The position numbers and the translations under genes are program-made. This document shows, piece after piece, positions 8,628-55,170 of a DNA stretch of 64,000 nt. The notes beneath the pieces were generated by a model, which did no database searches, was not told the origin of the DNA, and was given only the letters and a program-made list of their open reading frames with translations. This stretch comes from Sedimentisphaerales bacterium (GTDB lineage: Bacteria > Planctomycetota > Phycisphaerae > Sedimentisphaerales > SM23-30): the NCBI GenBank assembly GCA_963666285.1, contig OY762711.1; one strand, given 5' to 3'. The first letter of the stretch is position 1. Every line of letters starts with the position of its first letter.

Positions 8628-9353
8628 TCTTCTATTATTTTATCACAAACGAAACGAGTCACCTTATAATTATTGGCACTTATCCGTAGCCGTGGTTTTT
8701 AATGTCAATTATTTTTTTAATTTTTAATTTTGAATTCTTAATTTAATGCTTTCCCTTCATGGCCAGGTAATATTCTTTGCGACCTCTGCGGCCTCTGCGA
8801 GCAACAGTATTTTTTCGTGTTCTTTCGTGAATTTTCGTGGTTGACAATCTTTTTCAGAATTCTGAATTTAAATATGCGACAGCTTTAAAATAAGTTGTGA
8901 GCGACAGCGAATTATTCCTGATGTCAACGTACATCAGGACACCTCCTTTACAATTTTTATTTTACCCTTTACACTTTGATGCCGCTTCGCGGTATCTGGT
9001 CTGCCCAGCAGCTAAAAACAGGTCGAAAGCCTCAATGTAAATTTCCGCCGTTATAGCTCCGCGGCCCGTAGCGCACCCGCCGTTGGCCTGCCGCACTACC
9101 GCCGCATACTCTCCGTTTGTATTCCGTGATACCACAAGAGCTCTTCTCACCGCCGCGCCAATCCACAGCTCCTCCGCAAGCCGCCGTGGCCCGCGGCCCG
9201 GTCTCCGTCACTCGCCGCTGGCCGACTCAGCCGGTTTCAGCTCTTCTTCCCGCCGCGCTAGCGCCGCGGCCCGCCGTTTATACTCCGTTATCCGCCCGCG
9301 AATATTCCGCAGGTCGTCGCGGTTCCTCCGTTTCGATCTATGGCCGTTCGTAC
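8628..9353 (-). repeat. Composite intergenic repeat, copy 2, including the phased RCGG array (about 9040-9353) and the empty IS110 target (8822-8840)
   Basis: Inverted copy of 12521-13018 + 14589-14711 + 16126-16176. Confidence 0.9.
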
Positions 9354-12520: not shown

Positions 12521-13018
12521 GTACGAACGGTCACAGATCGAAACGGAGTAGCCGCGACGGCCTGCGGAATATTCGCGGGCGGATAACGGAGCATAAACGG
12601 CGGGCCGCGGCGCTAGCGCGGCGGGAAGAAGAGCTGAAACCGGCTGAGTCGGCCAGTGGCGTTTAACGGAGACCGGGCGGCGGGCCACGGCGGCTTACGG
12701 CGGGCCAGCGGATTGGCGCGGCGGTGAGAAGAGCTCTTGTGGTATCACGGAATACAAACGGAGAGTATGCGGCGGTAGTGCGGCAGGCCAACGGCGGTAG
12801 TGCGGCGGGCTGCGGAGCTATAACGGCGGAAATTTACATTGAGGCTTTCGGCCTGTTTTTGGGTGTTGGGCAGACCAGATGCCGCGAAGCGGCTTTTAAA
12901 GTGTAAAGGGTAAAATAAAAAGTGTAAAGGAGGTGTTCGCCTGGCGGCTCACAACTTATTTTAAAGCTTTCGCATATTTAAATTCAGAATTATGAAAAAG
13001 ATTGTCAACCACGAAAAT
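12521..13018 (+). repeat. Composite repeat, copy 3, left part, with phased RCGG array (about 12527-12830)
   Basis: Reverse complement of 8831-9353, roughly 85-90% identical by eye. Confidence 0.9.
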
Positions 13019-13137
13019 ACAATGAAAGCCAGAATATTCCTGTAGCATGGCTTGTGTTATAATACACAATAATTTTAGCACGAGCTGTCACAGGGACGCT
13101 CAAATATTTAACCAATTTTATACGGAGTATTCTGGCT

Positions 13138-14184
13138 ATGAAGACTATTATGTCAATTGATTTAGGAAAATTCAAGAGTGTAGTTTGTTTTTATGAGGTA
13201 AAAAGCTGTAAGGCTATATATAAGTCGTTTAAGACTAACCCTCAAGAGCTTCATGACCTGGCAGTATCTCACCCTGCTGATCTTATTGTATTTGAGGCTT
13301 GTGATATCATAGGCTGGATTTGTGACCTTTTTGACACCCTGGAATTAAAATATGAAGTGGCAAATACTAATACCGGCGAATGGTCTGGCAGAAAATTGAA
13401 GAAGAAAACAGATAAAAAGGATGCATTTTGGCTGGCCAAGCGTGCTGCTTTAGGAGATTTATCAACTGTCTATGTTCCTAAAAAGGAAATTCGAGAGAAA
13501 CGATCTTTAATTAATTATCGCCAGAGCCTTACAGAACGGATAACTCAGGTAAAAAATACTATTCGTTCTTTATTAAATGCCCAGGCGTATTCGTTGCCGT
13601 CAGGCAGAAAGTGCTGGTCTAAGCAGAATCTGGAACAGTTAAGAAGTATGGCTATGCCAATGGATAAAGTTAAACCAGATGAGCTCTGGAAAGGCAATCT
13701 ATGGAGCGAGCTTATATTACTGGAACAATTAACAGACGCTTTGCAAGTAGTTGAAGATAAACTGGAAGAGTTAAATAGTACTGATGAAAAGGTAAAACTA
13801 TTACAGACTGTTCCCGGAGTTGGCCCACGTCTGGCAGAGGCAGTTGCAGCTTATATTGATGATCCACATAGATTTAAGAATTGCAAACAAGTTGGCAGCT
13901 ATATTGGTATGACACCGCGTCAGTACCAATCAGGTAATACAGACCGTCATGGGCGGATAAGTAAATATGGCAATAGGTTATTGCGAGCATTACTTGTTGA
14001 GGTTTGCTGGCTGGGTTTGCGTTGGAATCCATGGATAAAAGAAACATACGAAAGAATAAAGAGGGGAAGTAAAACTCGTGCAAAAATAGCGATAGTAGCT
14101 ACAGCCCGACGGTTGTTCGTACGATTGTGGGCGATGATGCGAGATGGGACAAGTTGGCAGATGCCTGAATTGCAAAGTGTTTGA
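13138..14184 (+). CDS. IS110 family transposase/recombinase
   Basis: DEDD RuvC-like domain (IDLGK, FEAC, KTDKKDA); Tnp domain VPGVG and GMTPRQYQSG (catalytic Ser); AIVATARRL. Confidence 0.95.
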   Translation: MKTIMSIDLGKFKSVVCFYEVKSCKAIYKSFKTNPQELHDLAVSHPADLIVFEACDIIGWICDLFDTLELKYEVANTNTGEWSGRKLKKKTDKKDAFWLAKRAALGDLSTVYVPKKEIREKRSLINYRQSLTERITQVKNTIRSLLNAQAYSLPSGRKCWSKQNLEQLRSMAMPMDKVKPDELWKGNLWSELILLEQLTDALQVVEDKLEELNSTDEKVKLLQTVPGVGPRLAEAVAAYIDDPHRFKNCKQVGSYIGMTPRQYQSGNTDRHGRISKYGNRLLRALLVEVCWLGLRWNPWIKETYERIKRGSKTRAKIAIVATARRLFVRLWAMMRDGTSWQMPELQSV

Positions 14185-14229
14185 TACCAATATAAGTAAA
14201 ATATAAATATTACCTATGATTTTGCCCGA

Positions 14230-14380
14230 TTGAAATCGATACGGAACCTTGGTCGTGCATTTGGGTTTTGAACCTGACACGAAAATTAAGCCGTATCGCA
14301 ATATATATAATGGAACCATGGCGTAAAATACAGCCTCGGACACTCCGGATAGAAAGATGAAACAATCAGGTAAATAATGA
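14230..14380 (+). ncRNA. Putative bridge/seek RNA of the IS110-family element (RNA ends uncertain)
   Basis: Stem cgatacgg (14237-14244)/ccgtatcg (14291-14298) encloses tcgtgcattt (14253-14262) and cacgaaaatt (14278-14287), which match the two strands of the insertion target. Confidence 0.75.
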
Positions 14381-14582
14381 TTCGCTACGCGAAAATTGTT
14401 TTAAATAGGTTTATCGCATAAGGTCAAAAAGCAAAAAACGAGGCGGTGTAAAACCGCCCCGGCTTCTTGACAACTTGCAACGCTCGGGTTGCTCCTCAGC
14501 AGAGCCCTATCCTTTGCAAGATAAAGGAATTATAGCAAAAATGAATAAAATTAGAAAATTAATGTTGCATTCTGGCTTCATA

Positions 14583-14711
14583 GAAAATTCACGAAAGAAC
14601 ACGAAAAAAACACTGTTGCTCGCAGAGGCCGCAGAGCTCGCAAAGAATATTATTTGGCCATGAATGGAAAACTTTAAATTAAGAATTCAAAATTAAGAAT
14701 TAAGAAGAACT
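14583..14711 (+). repeat. Composite repeat, copy 3, middle part (9-mer and 7-mer modules) between IS110 and IS3
   Basis: Matches the reverse complement of 8715-8835 and of 6155-6265. Confidence 0.85.
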
Positions 14712-16123
14712 TGTCTGGTCCTGTGATAAGTTGTCACATTATAGATTTAATGTTTTAACAAATAACAGGAGACAACAATGTTGGTAAGTAAACGAACTTA
14801 TAATCGCTACAGCGAAGCCTTTAAATTACAGGTGGTAAATGATCTTGAATCTGGTAAGCTAAGCAGTATTTATGAGGCTAATTCCCGCTATGGGATTTCT
14901 GGTACAACAACAGTAAAGAGTTGGCTAAGAAAATATGGCCGTAACCATTTGATACCAAAGGTGATACGCGTGGAAAAACTAGATGAACAAGATCATGTAA
15001 AGAAGTTAGAATCAGAGATTAAGCAGCTTAAAGAAGCGTTAGCAGACAGCCATATAGAGAATATTGTAAGTGAAGCCAGGTTTCAGGTTATTTGTAAAGA
15101 ATACGGGCTGGATCCCGAGGAGTATAAAAAAAAAGTCGATACCAAACGGTTCAACAAGCGTCCGAGGCAACCGTTGAAAAGAAAGAGGAAAAAATAGCGA
15201 TAACTTCCTTATGCAAAGCTGTTGGCATGAGTCGTCAGAATTATTATAAATCACATAAAGTTCGGCGCAGGCGGCACTATGAAAAAGACCTGATAATATC
15301 TTTGGCCAGGCTGGAAAGATCATTGCAGCCTGAGATGGGTTGCAGAAAGGTTTTGAAGCGTATAAAGCCCAAACTGGCAAAAGCCGGTATTAGTATAGGG
15401 CGAGATAGATTTTATGAAACGATGTCAGAAGCAGATATGTTGATAGAGCGTAAAAAGCGAAGTGTGACAACGACAGACAGTCGTCATAACTTTAAGACTT
15501 ATAAGAATATACTGAAAGATGAAGAGCTTACAGGAGCCAATCAGGCCCTGGTAAGTGATATAACGTACATATATACAGATGAAGGATTTATGTATCTGTC
15601 GTTGATAATGGATGCATTTAGTCGCAAGATAGTTGGCTATGACTGTAGTGATAGTTTGGAAGCAGAAGGTTGTTTGCGTGCATTAACAAAGGCGATAAAG
15701 CAATTGCCCAAAGGTAGTAATACGATACATCATTCAGATCGTGGCAGTCAGTATTGCTGCCATAGATATATAGATAAGCTTAAAAGAAATGGGCTGCGAG
15801 TTAGTATGACCGAAGATAATCATTGTTATGAGAATGCCCAGGCCGAGAGGTTAAACGGTATATTGAAGCACGAGTATGGATTGAAGAATACGTTTAAGAA
15901 AAAAGCTCATGTTCATGCTGCGGTTAAACAGGCGATAGAACTGTATAATACCTGTCGTCCACATTTTGCTTTGGGATATCGTGTGCCTGAGGAAGTGCAT
16001 ATGGCGGCGTGATATATTCCTCCGTTCCGGTCGCCCTTCGGGCTCCCTGCACTACGGAATATATCATCAAAAAACAATAGTAAATAGAAACGGAAAGTGA
16101 CAACTTTAAATCAGGACTTGACA
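14712..16123 (+). mobile_element. IS3-family element, copy 1
   Basis: TG..CA ends; IRs TGTCTGGTCCTGTGATAAGTTGTCAC / GTGACAACTTTAAATCAGGACTTGACA; apparent 2-bp CT duplication relative to the empty allele (reverse complement of 6146-6165). Confidence 0.95.
14778..16012 (+). CDS. IS3 transposase OrfA (14778-15197) and OrfB (to 16012), joined by a -1 programmed frameshift
   Basis: HTH OrfA; A9G slippery run at 15126-15135 with the -1 frame open into OrfB; DDE motifs SDITY, HHSDRGSQY, ENAQAER. Confidence 0.92.
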
Positions 16124-16350: not shown

Positions 16351-17912
16351 GGGAGTGTTCATTTGACTGTGTAAATGGTACTATTGGTATAGGCAGAATA
16401 CACTTCTGTCTTGAAATTTACACATTTCTATATTAACTTGTATATTATCGTTCTGAAGGATAGGGCTCTGCTGAAGAGCAACCTGAGCGTCAGAATGATG
16501 CCGAGACAAAAGGCTCTGGAAGAACAAACATTTTCCACGAGCCTTTTATTTTGTTTTGGCTGATAAGCGAAAAACTTATAAAAACAGCTCCGCCAAAGGC
16601 GGCACCTCTTTTATCTTTCAGGCATTCGATCGCCGAACTTGATAGCGAACTGGTTTATCGCCTGATTCCAGCATCTAATTGGCATTGTCCACTTTTTAGA
16701 TATGTTTTCAAGAGCCAAATAGAATATCTTTAAGATCGATGCTTCGCTAGGGAATGCACCTTTAGTTTTGATAACTTTTCTCAGAGAACGATTCAGAGAT
16801 TCAATTGCATTGGTGGTATAAATCGCTTTACGGATTTCTGGCGGATAATCAAAAAACGGTATGATGTTTTGCCAGTTATTACGCCAGCTTTGGCTAACCA
16901 TAGGGTACTTATCATCCCATTTTTGAGCAAATTCGTCCAGAGCCATTTCAGCTTCCTGCTCAGTGGCTGCGGTATAGATTAGCTTTAAATCAGCACATAG
17001 CTGTTTGCGATCTTTCCAGTTAACAAACCGCACTGAATTACGAACCATATGTACAATACATAACTGTACCTGGGTTTTAGGGAAAACGGCTTCTATAGCT
17101 TCTGGAAAGCCTTTTAAGCCATCTATGCAAGTGATGAATATATCTTTAACACCTCGATTTTGAAGCTCTGTAATGATATTAAGCCAGAATTTTGCTCCTT
17201 CAGTTTTAGCTATCCAGATACCCAATAATTCCTTCATGCCATCCATATTTACACCGAGAGCAAGATAAACTGACAAATTGGATACTTTGCCGTCCTGGCG
17301 ACATTTAACAACAATACAGTCAAGGAATACTATTGGATAAACTTCATCCAAAACTCGATTTTGCCAGGATTTAACTTCCTGCATTATACTCTCGGTTGCC
17401 TGGCTGATAAGACCTTCAGAGACATCAACGTGATACATATCCAGAAGACATGCCTGAATATCACGGACACTCATACCACGACCATACATGGCTATGATCT
17501 TATCATTAAAACCTTCAAAATACTTCTCGCCCTTGGGGATAAGCTTAGGTTCAAAGGTGCTGTTGCGGTCACGGGGAGGATTAAGTTCAACTTCGTCAGA
17601 ATCGATTACAACAGACTTTTTACCATTGCCATTACGACTATTGCCACTGTTATTGCCCTTAGGGTCATGCTTGCTGTAGCCCAGATGGTCGCTCATCTCT
17701 GCTTCTAAAGCTCGTTCAACTATTCGTTTTTTGAGCTCAGAAAATAAACCTGATTCTCCCCAAAACTCCTCCGGAGTATTGTAACCTCCTAGAAGCTCAT
17801 CAATTAACTCATCTTTACGTTTGTCTTGTGCCGATCGTTTAGCCATAGTTCTTTACCTCACATTATAGGTTAACAAATCTATGACCATTTACACAGTTTA
17901 ATTTACACCCTC
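16351..17912 (-). mobile_element. IS256-family element
   Basis: IRs GGGAGTGTTCATTTGACTGTGTAAATGGT and GAGGGTGTAAATTAAACTGTGTAAATGGT (rc); 8-bp TSD CTGCTTTT at 16343-16350 and 17913-17920. Confidence 0.95.
16611..17846 (-). CDS. IS256 family transposase
   Basis: NSRNG, PRDRNSTFEP, YPIVFLD, DGLKGFPEAI, QLCIVH, YTTNAIES. Confidence 0.97.
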   Translation of the reverse strand: MAKRSAQDKRKDELIDELLGGYNTPEEFWGESGLFSELKKRIVERALEAEMSDHLGYSKHDPKGNNSGNSRNGNGKKSVVIDSDEVELNPPRDRNSTFEPKLIPKGEKYFEGFNDKIIAMYGRGMSVRDIQACLLDMYHVDVSEGLISQATESIMQEVKSWQNRVLDEVYPIVFLDCIVVKCRQDGKVSNLSVYLALGVNMDGMKELLGIWIAKTEGAKFWLNIITELQNRGVKDIFITCIDGLKGFPEAIEAVFPKTQVQLCIVHMVRNSVRFVNWKDRKQLCADLKLIYTAATEQEAEMALDEFAQKWDDKYPMVSQSWRNNWQNIIPFFDYPPEIRKAIYTTNAIESLNRSLRKVIKTKGAFPSEASILKIFYLALENISKKWTMPIRCWNQAINQFAIKFGDRMPER

Positions 17913-54809: not shown

Positions 54810-55170
54810 ACACGAACAGAACACAATAAAAACACTATTGCTCGCAGAGGCCGCAAAGAATATTATTTCACCATGAAGGGAATGCTTAAAATTAAGAATT
54901 CAAAATTAAGAATTCAGAAAATAACTGACATTAAAAACCACGGCTACGGGTAAGTACAAATAACTATAAGGTGACTTGCTTCAGCCTTCGCTAAAGCTAT
55001 GGTTCGACAAGACCGCACGTGATTAATAATTCTGAACCACTGATGCACGCGGATGGACACCGATAAGAAAATGTTTAGATAACTTGACGGTAATTTTTTC
55101 ACGAAATTCACGAAAGAACACGAAAAAAAACGATGTTGCTCGCAGAGGGCGCAGAGGCCGCGAAGAAAAT
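54810..55170 (+). repeat. Composite repeat, copy 4
   Basis: Homologous to 14600-14705, 16145-16280 and the reverse complement of 8655-8835. Confidence 0.85.

What the first reader, a model, noticed from the sequence alone, without database searches (positions are those of the whole stretch)
13013..14588. IS110/IS1111-type recombinase whose 3' RNA loop spells out its target, a genomic 9-mer repeat
Seen: the empty site at 8822-8840 reads CCAC-GAAAAT-TCACGAAAG on the minus strand. The filled site reads CCAC-GAAAAT-[element]-GAAAAT-TCACGAAAG. Downstream of the transposase, an 8-bp perfect stem (cgatacgg 14237-14244 / ccgtatcg 14291-14298) and a small apical hairpin (ggtt-ttg-aacc) bracket an internal loop. 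One side of the loop, CACGAAAATT (14278-14287), is 10/10 identical to the target top strand. The other, TCGTGCATTT (14253-14262), is 9/10 identical to the bottom strand (TCGTGAATTT). Known: IS110/IS1111 recombinases use bridge/seek RNAs with such two-strand target loops, encoded downstream of tnp in IS1111-type elements. Inference: this is a natural RNA-guided recombinase programmed against the host's dispersed repeat, with recombinase, guide, filled site and empty site all in one window. A donor loop is only partly visible (ATAGAAA at 14349-14355 matches the junction).
Basis: partly seen in the sequence, partly recalled or inferred. Interest (0 to 1): 0.92.

Follow-up and report, generated by a model that had tools for sequence, protein, structure and literature searches.

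The report
IS1111-type insertion sequence with bridge RNA

Summary
Window ~13017-14586 is an IS110-family element of the IS1111 type. It has a 348-aa DEDD recombinase, 13/14-nt subterminal inverted repeats and a 394-nt 3' non-coding region. The genome holds nine near-identical copies, all beside ACCACGAAA on the left. Seven of them sit in an 18-copy intergenic repeat module.

In an alignment of 19 related elements, mostly Planctomycetota, the scaffold helices covary: 23 of 29 pairs have compensatory changes, and 88.6% of cells pair against 26-41% when the partners are slid. Both loop arms track each element's own flanks (0 of 20,000 permutations reach the observed match).

A complete donor-binding pair is also present. 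ATAGAAA (14349-14355) matches the right end and TATAT (14304-14308) is complementary to the left end. A long-range helix (14228-32/14363-67) encloses both loops.

Corrections:
- The last 2-3 letters of the '10/10' match are probably donor-matching or scaffold letters.
- The crossover register (AA or AT) is unresolved.
- The target is a low-copy module, not an abundant 9-mer.

No RNA data exist. This is the published bridge/seek-RNA mechanism (Durrant 2024; Siddiquee 2024), so it is a new member of a known kind, of modest interest.

The parts
13010..13016 (+). Left target half plus putative core (CACG + AAA), host DNA at the filled site
   Evidence: The left flank is identical in 9 of 9 genomic copies. 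It matches the 3' loop arm 14278-14284.
13017..13021 (+). Left-end terminal extension (ATACA), the right-donor segment
   Evidence: It lies between the junction and the subterminal repeat. It is homologous to AAACT in 14 of the 18 relatives. It is complementary, with 1 mismatch, to TATAT 14304-14308.
13022..13035 (+). Left subterminal inverted repeat ATGAAAGCCAGAAT
   Evidence: It is the reverse complement of 14569-14581 with one extra A. The same motif is conserved in the relatives.
13138..14184 (+). Recombinase gene, 348 aa (DEDD RuvC-like domain, then the Tnp domain with GMTPRQYQSG)
   Evidence: Pfam PF01548 (1.1e-13) and PF02371 (1.5e-26). NCBIfam NF033542, 213.5 bits against a cut-off of 140. 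PDB IS621 transposase 8wt6 E 3.5e-14 and ISCro4 transposase 9t56 E 1.7e-15. The frame is open in all 9 copies.
14228..14232 (+). 5' strand of the long-range helix P1 (GATTG) that encloses both loops
   Evidence: It pairs with 14363-14367. 81% of cells pair across 19 sequences, and 2 of 5 pairs have compensatory changes. It is recovered in the fold.
14237..14251 (+). 5' strand of the outer stem of the target-binding stem-loop
   Evidence: 8 perfect pairs with 14291-14298, plus CUUG/UAAG. 9 of 10 consensus pairs have compensatory changes.
14252..14262 (+). 5' loop arm (GTCGTGCATTT), the right-target guide plus core complement
   Evidence: Its reverse complement AAATGCACGAC matches AAATTCACGAA at 9 of 11 positions. 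This arm covaries with the right flank in 19 elements.
14262..14276 (+). Apical hairpin of the target-binding loop
   Evidence: 96.8% of cells pair, and 4 of 5 pairs have compensatory changes.
14278..14286 (+). 3' loop arm CACGAAA + AT: left-target guide, core, and 2 letters that match the element's left end
   Evidence: It is identical to the left junction CACGAAAAT in 9 of 9 copies. This arm covaries with the left flank in 19 elements.
14287..14298 (+). 3' strand of the outer stem of the target-binding stem-loop
14304..14308 (+). Right-donor guide TATAT, in the junction between the two stem-loops
   Evidence: Alignment columns 125-129. The guide/left-end pairs are AGTTK/AAACT in most relatives, AGCTG/AAGCT in L099 and GATGG/ATATC in L041. 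The cognate mean match is 4.05 against 3.35 for non-cognate pairs, and 0 of 20,000 permutations reach it.
14311..14347 (+). Hairpin of the donor-binding part
   Evidence: Two consensus helices, with 8 of 9 pairs showing compensatory changes. The single-sequence fold of this copy draws it differently.
14349..14355 (+). Left-donor guide plus core, ATAGAAA
   Evidence: It is identical to the right end CATAGAAA. The three variable letters take 5 states (AAA, AAG, GAG, ATG, AGG) that follow each element's own right end: cognate mean 2.89 of 3, and 0 of 20,000 permutations reach it.
14363..14367 (+). 3' strand of P1 (CAATC)
14381..14393 (+). Terminator-like hairpin followed by AATTGTTTTA; possible 3' end of the RNA
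   Evidence: The same hairpin is conserved in the 66%-identical relative (sequence).
14439..14461 (-). Terminator-like hairpin on the opposite strand, inside the right end
   Evidence: 9 pairs, then TTTTTTGCTT. Its function is not tested.
14565..14570 (+). TTGCAT, a -35-like hexamer. On a circle junction it would lie 17 nt from TACAAT (13018-13023).
   Evidence: Read. This is an inference. The papers describe a promoter formed when the ends are joined (PMC11187229, Discussion).
14569..14581 (+). Right subterminal inverted repeat ATTCTGGCTTCAT
14582..14586 (+). Right-end terminal letters plus putative core (AG A + AA)
   Evidence: Positional homology with CATAG-AAG in the relatives. The register is ambiguous.
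14587..14597 (+). Right target half at the filled site (ATTCACGAAAG)
8822..8840 (-). Unoccupied paralogous target with four A's (CCACGAAAATTCACGAAAG)
55100..55113 (+). Second unoccupied target-like site in the window, the three-A form without the preceding CC (CACGAAATTCACGA)

Best explanation
This is an autonomous insertion sequence of the IS110 family, IS1111 group. Its recombinase is guided by a bridge RNA (also called a seekRNA) of about 140-175 nt, encoded just 3' of the gene at about 14228-14395.

The RNA has two parts.
- A target-binding stem-loop. [quoted passage not shown] - A donor-binding part. [quoted passage not shown] The RNA holds the joined element ends and the host site in one recombinase complex, and strand exchange happens within the shared A-run.

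Shown here: the anatomy, the site specificity of nine copies, the covariation of the helices, and the covariation of all four guide segments with their DNA partners.

Inferred from the family: that the RNA is made, that it binds the protein, that a circular intermediate forms, and the chemistry of the exchange.
For: Family domains.

9 full-length copies at 99-100% identity with open frames.

9 of 9 copies are in one orientation beside ACCACGAAA. The right halves are TTCACGA or ATTCACGA in 7, TACACAA in 1 and AACACGA in 1.

There is no variation among the copies anywhere in 14228-14367.

The 19-element alignment gives 88.6% paired cells (0 of 500 shuffles as high), 23 of 29 pairs with changes on both sides, and 26.5-41.0% paired when slid. 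RNAalifold found 21 of 24 predicted pairs with compensatory change.

Cognate against non-cognate guide-flank matches:
- left target, 3.74 against 1.48 of 5
- right target, 4.42 against 2.15 of 8
- left-donor variable letters, 2.89 against 2.19 of 3
- right donor, 4.05 against 3.35 of 5
In each case 0 of 20,000 permutations reached the observed value.

Natural reprogramming is visible between close kin: L078 has RC guide AAGACGCCAA with flank AAGACGCCAA, and L092 has AGAGCGCCAA with flank AGAGCGCCAA.

The arm order agrees with PMC11187229 and the strand polarity with PMC11208160.
Against: There is no RNA evidence. No RNA run is listed for this organism, and Rfam has no matching family (searches give neither support nor contradiction).

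The right-target arm has one mismatch to every site in the genome. A site perfectly matching the guide occurs 0 times.

The closest relative (L041) matches its right flank poorly in the fixed register, 4 of 11.

The right-donor guide has a mismatch here and scores only 3 of 5 in five relatives.

The 19 elements include close kin, so the permutation counts are not true probabilities.

Three unoccupied sites that match both arms, but lack the preceding CC, are not explained by the RNA pairing.
Confidence: 0.9

Rival explanations
1. The family is right, but the nine copies are a finished burst. The element no longer moves, and the guides are a frozen record rather than a working system.
For: No insertion polymorphism or circle junction could be shown. 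Only contigs were available, and the joints seen at 13013/14585 can come from paralogous empty sites. 11 of 18 target modules remain unoccupied, including one (918226) that matches as well as the occupied ones.
Against: The copies are 99-100% identical, with intact frames and invariant guide RNA regions. That points to recent spread.
Confidence: 0.12
2. The internal matches act as DNA, not RNA. They would be an internal copy of the target serving as a protein-binding or synapsis site, as with attachment sites of integrases.
For: Similarity between an element and its target is also expected for DNA-DNA site recognition. No transcript was observed (no RNA run is listed).
Against: The sequences around the matches keep base-pairing through compensatory changes in five helices, which is selection on a single-stranded fold. 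The two arms match opposite strands in a fixed order. The family has been shown experimentally to use such RNAs (PMC11187229 and PMC11208160, sections read).
Confidence: 0.03
3. The loop-target matches are chance similarity between A-rich sequences.
For: Single matches are not rare. 858 of 20,000 resampled regions had a top-strand 9-mer, and 2,086 had a 9-of-10 bottom-strand match.
Against: Both matches together within 60 nt occurred in 24 of 20,000 resamplings. The same columns follow different flanks in 18 other elements.
Confidence: 0.01

Closest known systems
IS1111-group insertion sequences with seekRNA (ISEc11, ISPa11, ISKpn4, ISPst6; Siddiquee et al. 2024, PMC11187229; sections 6, 9, 10, 13 and Discussion read)
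   Same: - The recombinase is within the 330-350 aa range and carries the G..P....SG motif.
- It has subterminal inverted repeats.
- The long non-coding region lies downstream of the gene.
- The arm that pairs with the top strand lies 5' of the arm that pairs with the bottom strand, and the two footprints overlap in the target.
- Targets are host repeats.
- Close relatives are naturally retargeted.
   Different: - The hosts are a planctomycete and its relatives.
- The target is a tandem CACGAAA array, so the two guide arms are complementary to each other.
- I also map donor-matching segments and an enclosing helix. The sections of that paper that I read describe neither; its figures and supplements were not seen.
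IS621 bridge RNA and recombinase (Durrant et al. 2024, PMC11208160; Hiraizumi et al. 2024, PMC11208158; passages read)
   Same: - One RNA carries two bispecific binding parts.
- The left guides pair with the bottom strand, the right guides pair with the top strand, and the core is covered by both.
- The recombinase is related (8wt6, E 3.5e-14 over residues 205-339).
- Extra letters beside a target guide match the donor, like the handshake guides.
   Different: - The RNA is encoded in the right end, not the left.
- The order of the arms is reversed.
- The subterminal repeats are long.
- The donor guides lie in the junction closed by a long-range helix, not in a separate internal loop.
- The donor-matching extra letters follow the left-target guide (bottom-strand side), whereas in IS621 they adjoin the right-target guide.
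- The core is AA or AT here, against CT in IS621.
IS110/IS1111 elements that insert in repetitive extragenic palindromes (ISPpu9 and ISPpu10 of Pseudomonas putida; PMC12288879 and bioRxiv 10.64898/2026.03.19.712850, search listings and abstracts only)
   Same: Several identical copies sit in one dispersed intergenic repeat of the host.
   Different: The repeat here is not a palindrome. It is three tandem CACGAAA units inside an 18-copy module.

Membership tests
IS110 family (RNA-guided DEDD recombinases) | N-terminal DEDD RuvC-like domain and C-terminal Tnp domain | tested here: met
   PF01548 E 1.1e-13 and PF02371 E 1.5e-26. NF033542, 213.5 bits against a cut-off of 140. D8, E53, D92 and D95 are invariant among 4 divergent homologues. 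Equating them with IS621 D11/E60/D102/D105 is an inference.
IS110 family (RNA-guided DEDD recombinases) | Conserved serine in a G..P....S/T-G motif | tested here: met
   GMTPRQYQSG at residues 257-266 of the translation. S265 and G266 are invariant. The motif is as written in PMC11187229.
IS110 family (RNA-guided DEDD recombinases) | Site- and orientation-specific insertion | tested here: met
   9 of 9 copies are in one orientation at ACCACGAAA / NNCAC(G/A)A.
IS1111 group | Subterminal inverted repeats of 7-17 bp with short terminal extensions | tested here: met
   ATGAAAGCCAGAAT / ATTCTGGCTTCAT, 13 of 14 with one extra A, set in from both junctions by about 5 nt.
IS1111 group | Long non-coding region downstream of the recombinase gene; recombinase of 330-350 aa | tested here: met
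   394 nt lie downstream and about 120 nt upstream. The protein has 348 aa.
IS1111 group | Recombinase falls in the IS1111 branch of the family tree | not tested
Bridge RNA / seekRNA | Two loop arms that match opposite strands of the target and overlap at the crossover; in IS1111 types the top-strand arm lies 5' of the bottom-strand arm | tested here: met
   Arms at 14252-14262 and 14278-14286.
Bridge RNA / seekRNA | Guide arms covary with the flanks across orthologues, and the scaffold helices are conserved by compensatory change | tested here: met
Bridge RNA / seekRNA | Second pair of guides that match the element's own joined ends | tested here: met
   The left-donor guide is clear: 5 covarying states. 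The right-donor guide is weaker: 4 of 5 here and 3 of 5 in five relatives.
Bridge RNA / seekRNA | The RNA is expressed, binds the recombinase and is needed for recombination | not testable with these tools
   No RNA run is listed. This needs bench work.
Bridge RNA / seekRNA | Match to a curated RNA family model | tested here: not met
   Rfam 15 gave only three chance-level matches, E 1.6-8.8, none over 14228-14395. I do not know whether Rfam holds a model for IS1111-type bridge RNAs, so this says little.

The most novel reading that the evidence does not exclude
This planctomycete clade of IS1111-like elements may use a bridge-RNA layout that differs from the solved IS621 one.
- One long-range helix encloses the target stem-loop and the donor hairpin.
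- The donor guides sit in the resulting junction.
- The donor-matching 'handshake' letters follow the left-target guide, on the bottom-strand side. That would hint at a different order of strand exchange.

Several members (this one, L041, L077, L078/L092) are aimed at short tandem repeat arrays of their hosts. This makes the two target arms self-complementary, so the loop could close on itself and act as a brake until the protein opens it.
Probability: 0.25. Interest if true: 0.5.

Novelty: new member of a known kind. Interest (0 to 1): 0.3.

Why it matters
It is a clean, self-contained natural example. The recombinase, the complete guide RNA, an occupied site and two unoccupied sites all lie in one window. 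There are eight more copies in the genome, and a set of relatives with different programmed targets.

That makes it a handy test case for how IS1111-type bridge RNAs hold the donor, which is less well described than for IS621. It is also a test case for how much mismatch or register slip the target arms tolerate (three-A against four-A sites).

It does not change what is known about the family. NCBI's annotation model already names such proteins 'IS110 family RNA-guided transposase'.

Tried and rejected
- Rfam scan of 12800-14800 at E up to 10: only three chance-level matches, none on the RNA.
- Search for RNA sequencing runs: no RNA holder listed, and the three holders are kept as contigs from one study.
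- Laying those contigs on 12600-15000: no piece spans the locus. Joints that skip 13007/13013 to 14585 are what paralogous empty sites would give, so they do not show excision or polymorphism at this locus. Contig depth is not a copy number. One contig in X3 leaves the element at 14288; I did not follow this.
- A fixed-register comparison understates some right-arm matches. L077 and L092 fit 10 of 10 when shifted by one letter, so I did not treat their low scores as counter-evidence.
Neither can be told apart from an AA core with these data.
It was repeated in two lighter scripts.
- Left out of the 19-row alignment: ten element groups of the Pirellulaceae type (right end CATAGTCG, longer spacing between the loops; groups 3, 5-9, 11-13 and 17) and the second IS of this genome (L037-L040).
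- A literature search for IS110 / Planctomycetota / bridge RNA listed 12 of 53 papers, none of which holds 'Planctomycetota'. This does not show that the clade is undescribed.
- ISfinder could not be consulted.
Full report
**What is in the sequence**

- The minus strand of 8822-8840 reads CCACGAAAATTCACGAAAG.
- The filled site reads CCACGAAAAT-ACAATGAAAGCC...GGCTTCATA-GAAAAT-TCACGAAAG.
- Between the two junctions lies one long ORF, 13138-14184, 348 aa. It carries the two Pfam domains of IS110-family recombinases, PF01548 and PF02371.
- It scores 213.5 bits on NCBIfam NF033542, 'IS110 family RNA-guided transposase', cut-off 140.
- Among solved structures it matches the ISCro4 and IS621 transposases (9t56, E 1.7e-15; 8wt6, E 3.5e-14).
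- The element has subterminal inverted repeats, ATGAAAGCCAGAAT at 13022-13035 and ATTCTGGCTTCAT at 14569-14581.
- About 120 nt lie before the gene and 394 nt after it.
- These are the marks of the IS1111 group as set out in PMC11187229 (section read) and PMC11208160 (passage).

**Copies and their sites**

The window's own genome is 6.35 Mb in 4 contigs. Its family-level relatives are labelled Sedimentisphaerales, Planctomycetota. It holds 9 full-length copies at 99-100% identity, and the recombinase frame is open in all of them.

After orienting by the element, all 9 have ACCACGAAAAT-ACAATG on the left. On the right, after CATAG:
- 5 read AAATTCACGAAAG
- 2 read AAAATTCACGAAAG (the window copy is one of them)
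- 1 reads AAATACACAAAAATTCACG
- 1 reads AAAAACACGAAAGG

So no copy lies in unrelated sequence.

The right-hand module TTCACGAAAGA(A)CACGAAAA occurs 18 times in the genome. 7 copies are occupied and 11 are not. The 11 unoccupied ones are:
- 5 CCACGAAAATT
- 1 CCACGAAATT
- 3 CACGAAATT without the CC
- 2 variants

The heptamer CACGAAA itself is not enriched: 459 counted against 775 expected under uniform composition. The target is therefore a low-copy composite intergenic repeat that carries three tandem CACGAAA units, not an abundant 9-mer.

**The RNA fold in this copy**

Folding 14185-14585 and 14222-14400 recovers three features (z -2.92 and -2.68):
- the 8-bp outer stem (14237-44/14291-98)
- the apical hairpin
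- a long-range helix, GAUUG 14228-32 with CAAUC 14363-67

In these single-sequence folds the two loop arms pair with each other (UCGUG/CACGA). This follows from the target being a direct repeat.

A terminator-like hairpin at 14381-14393, followed by AATTGTTTTA, comes after the structure.

Among the nine copies there are 29 variable alignment columns. None lies in 14228-14367; the nearest is 14224.

**Chance**

I resampled the 394-nt region 20,000 times as a first-order Markov chain.
- 858 resamplings had a 9-mer identical to the target top strand.
- 2,086 had a 9-of-10 match to the bottom strand.
- 24 had both within 60 nt.

**Relatives**

A search of 61 related genomes found the protein at E 1e-30 or better in 8, the window's own genome included. 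The hits include:
- a 66%-identical element in G017 (2 copies)
- 50-51%-identical ones in G020 (9 copies) and G038
- a second element, 36% identical, with 4 copies in the window's own genome

A scan of 185,579 species genomes with a 4-protein alignment gave 190 relatives. The 80 best were kept, mostly Planctomycetota.

Using the conserved end motifs (NATGAA.GCC on the left...CATAG on the right) I could place both ends in 27 element groups. Multi-copy groups each show their own conserved flanks. Examples are GAAATTAAG|...|GTGTCCGG in G020, CCGCCAAG|...|ACGCCAAGAG in L078-L088, and CAGGCCAG|...|CCAAC in L112-L120.

**Conserved structure**

I aligned the region from 125 nt before to 32 nt after the conserved ATAG motif. 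The 19 rows represent 18 elements of the closer clade plus the window. The ten Pirellulaceae-type groups and the second IS of this genome were left out.

RNAalifold predicts 24 pairs, and 21 of them have compensatory changes. With the long-range helix added there are 29 pairs in 5 helices:
- 88.6% of cells form standard pairs, against 73.7% in column shuffles; 0 of 500 shuffles reach it.
- 23 pairs have changes on both sides.
- Sliding the 3' partners by 1-3 columns drops pairing to 26.5-41.0%.

The sequences are related, so the shuffle count is not a probability. The slid controls keep relatedness and still collapse.

**Guide-target covariation**

I took the loop arms by alignment column, not by similarity to flanks, and compared them with each element's consensus junctions at a fixed register.

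| Arm | Cognate mean | Non-cognate mean | Permutations of 20,000 reaching the observed sum |
|---|---|---|---|
| 5 variable left-target letters | 3.74 | 1.48 | 0 |
| 8 right-target letters | 4.42 | 2.15 | 0 |

- Some low right-arm scores are one-letter register shifts. L077 and L092 fit 10 of 10 when shifted.
- L041, L099, L104 and L107 fit poorly.
- Five rows (L045, L055, L100, L101, L104) share the left target AATTAAG and are close kin.
- Two close relatives show natural retargeting. L078 has guide complement AAGACGCCAA with flank AAGACGCCAA. L092 has AGAGCGCCAA with flank AGAGCGCCAA.

For the window element:
- The 3' arm ACACGAAAAT carries CACGAAA, which equals left target plus core.
- The reverse complement of the 5' arm, AAATGCACGAC, meets AAATTCACGAA with 9 of 11 matches.
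- A site that would match the guide perfectly does not occur in the genome: 0 hits for either A-run length.

**Donor guides**

Downstream of the target stem-loop all 19 rows carry ATAG followed by three letters that take five states (AAA, AAG, GAG, ATG, AGG). These follow the element's own right end CATAG+3. The cognate mean is 2.89 of 3 against 2.19, and 0 of 20,000 permutations reach it.

Between the two stem-loops, columns 125-129 are complementary to the first five letters of the left end:
- AGTTK with AAACT in most rows
- AGCTG with AAGCT in L099
- GATGG with ATATC in L041
- TATAT (14304-14308) with ATACA here, one mismatch

The cognate mean is 4.05 against 3.35, and 0 of 20,000 permutations reach it. 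Five rows reach only 3 of 5. So the element has a full donor-binding pair. It is formed by the strands that join the target stem-loop, a second hairpin (14311-14347) and the long-range helix.

**Register of the crossover**

In most relatives the junctions read LT-AAG-AAAC... and CATAG-AAG-RT. In the G020 group CATAGG-AG-RT is the commonest right junction. This points to a short core, probably AG.

The homologous letters here are AA, within AAA. That gives:
- donor CATAGA-AA-ATACAATG
- target CCACGA-AA-TTCACGA

This register explains, without any change in the element, why the left junction is constant while the right junction has three A's in 6 copies and four or more in 3. The difference would come from three-A and four-A target variants, and both exist unoccupied.

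Under this register, sites with the ACCACG context are occupied as follows (my tally):
- three-A sites: 5 of 6
- four-A sites: 2 of 7

These numbers are too small to test.

It needs a length polymorphism in the right end of six copies. I cannot decide between them. The sequence of a circle junction would.

The two letters after the core in the 3' arm (AT here and in L041, AA in 15 of the other 17 rows) equal the first letters of the left end. This is one joint change in one lineage, so it is only a hint. It recalls the handshake guides of IS621 (PMC11208158, passages), but here they sit next to the left-target guide.

**Mechanism**

By analogy with IS621 and ISEc11:
1. The element circularises.
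2. The joined ends would read ...TTGCAT-17 nt-TACAAT..., a good sigma-70-type promoter facing the recombinase gene. I read this; it is an inference.
3. The transcript carries the recombinase message and the 3' RNA.
4. The RNA, bound by recombinase subunits, pairs with both strands of the joined ends and of the host site.
5. The serine of the GMTPRQYQSG motif, with the DEDD site, exchanges strands within the A-run.

Only the anatomy and the covariation are shown here.

**Comparison and novelty**

Every defining feature of the IS1111 group that I could test is met. Placement in a reference tree and RNA expression were not tested.

Bridge RNAs were predicted in 93.0% of catalogued IS1111 elements, in the right end. 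The order of the arms found here is the published one. The finding is thus a correct recognition of a known system in a new host clade.

Possibly new details:
- the enclosing helix
- the position of the donor guides
- the side of the handshake-like letters
- the repeated choice of short tandem arrays as targets, with self-complementary arms in this element, L041, L077 and L078/L092

I could not see the figures or supplements of the two 2024 papers, which show six predicted structures including IS1111 members. These details may already be drawn there.

**Verdict**

It is a new member of a known kind, with interest 0.3.

Noticed in passing
G000 C1 1589823-1590821, 2394713-2395711, 5026826-5027824, 5746309-5747307 (loci L037-L040): A second IS1111-like element is present in the same genome, with a recombinase 36% identical and 4 copies. 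Its flanks are AACCACGAAT|...|GGACACGAATTCACACC, so it also lands in CACGAA-type repeats. Both of its loops carry AG where the DNA junctions read AT, the same mismatch in the target and donor guides.
   Followed up: partly
window 14778-16012: An IS3-family element lies 190 nt to the right of this IS. It has orfA of 139 aa and orfB of 261 aa (NF033516, E 7.9e-67). The region is a cluster of mobile elements and repeats.
   Followed up: partly
window 14477-14513 and 16456-16490 (-): A 35-nt piece of the element's right end (CGCTCGGGTTGCTCCTCAGCAGAGCCCTATCC...) recurs once outside the IS at 94% identity. Many metagenome contigs match only 14481-14513, with unlike sequence on both sides. The ~170-nt module 14400-14560 that holds it is shared only with the 66%-identical relative. 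Its function is unknown.
   Followed up: partly
window 13040-13100: The left end contains TGT-TATAAT (13055-13063) inside an inverted repeat (CCTGT...ACAGG). A TATAAT at the same place is conserved in G017, G020, G038 and the second IS. It is a possible internal promoter for the recombinase.
   Followed up: no
G000 C1 714179-718104, 909040-918240, 3961191-3963080; window 8822 and 13013: Occupied and unoccupied target modules lie in clusters a few kb apart. One cluster has two IS copies 486 bp apart with an empty site 323 bp upstream. The left context of the modules comes in at least three recurring forms, so the target sits in a mosaic of intergenic repeat modules.
   Followed up: partly
G000 C1 3248925-3250484 (locus L007): One off-family insertion is flanked on both sides by the same ~35-nt sequence (CTACAACAGTAGAAATTTAATATGTCTTCTAGAC). 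This is a local direct repeat around the element, and it is unexplained.
   Followed up: no
L045-L054 (G020), L078-L093, L041/L042: Several relatives insert at the edge of short tandem arrays of their hosts: GGGGAAATTAAA repeats, CGCCAAGA repeats and GTGAAG repeats. Earlier notes of this scan describe tandem heptamer cassettes in intergenic DNA of this genome. Whether the targets belong to that class was not tested.
   Followed up: no
window 14288 (run X3): In one run from a second sample, a 575-nt contig follows the element up to 14288 and then continues into unlike sequence. This could be an assembly branch or a rearranged copy that ends inside the target-binding stem-loop.
   Followed up: no
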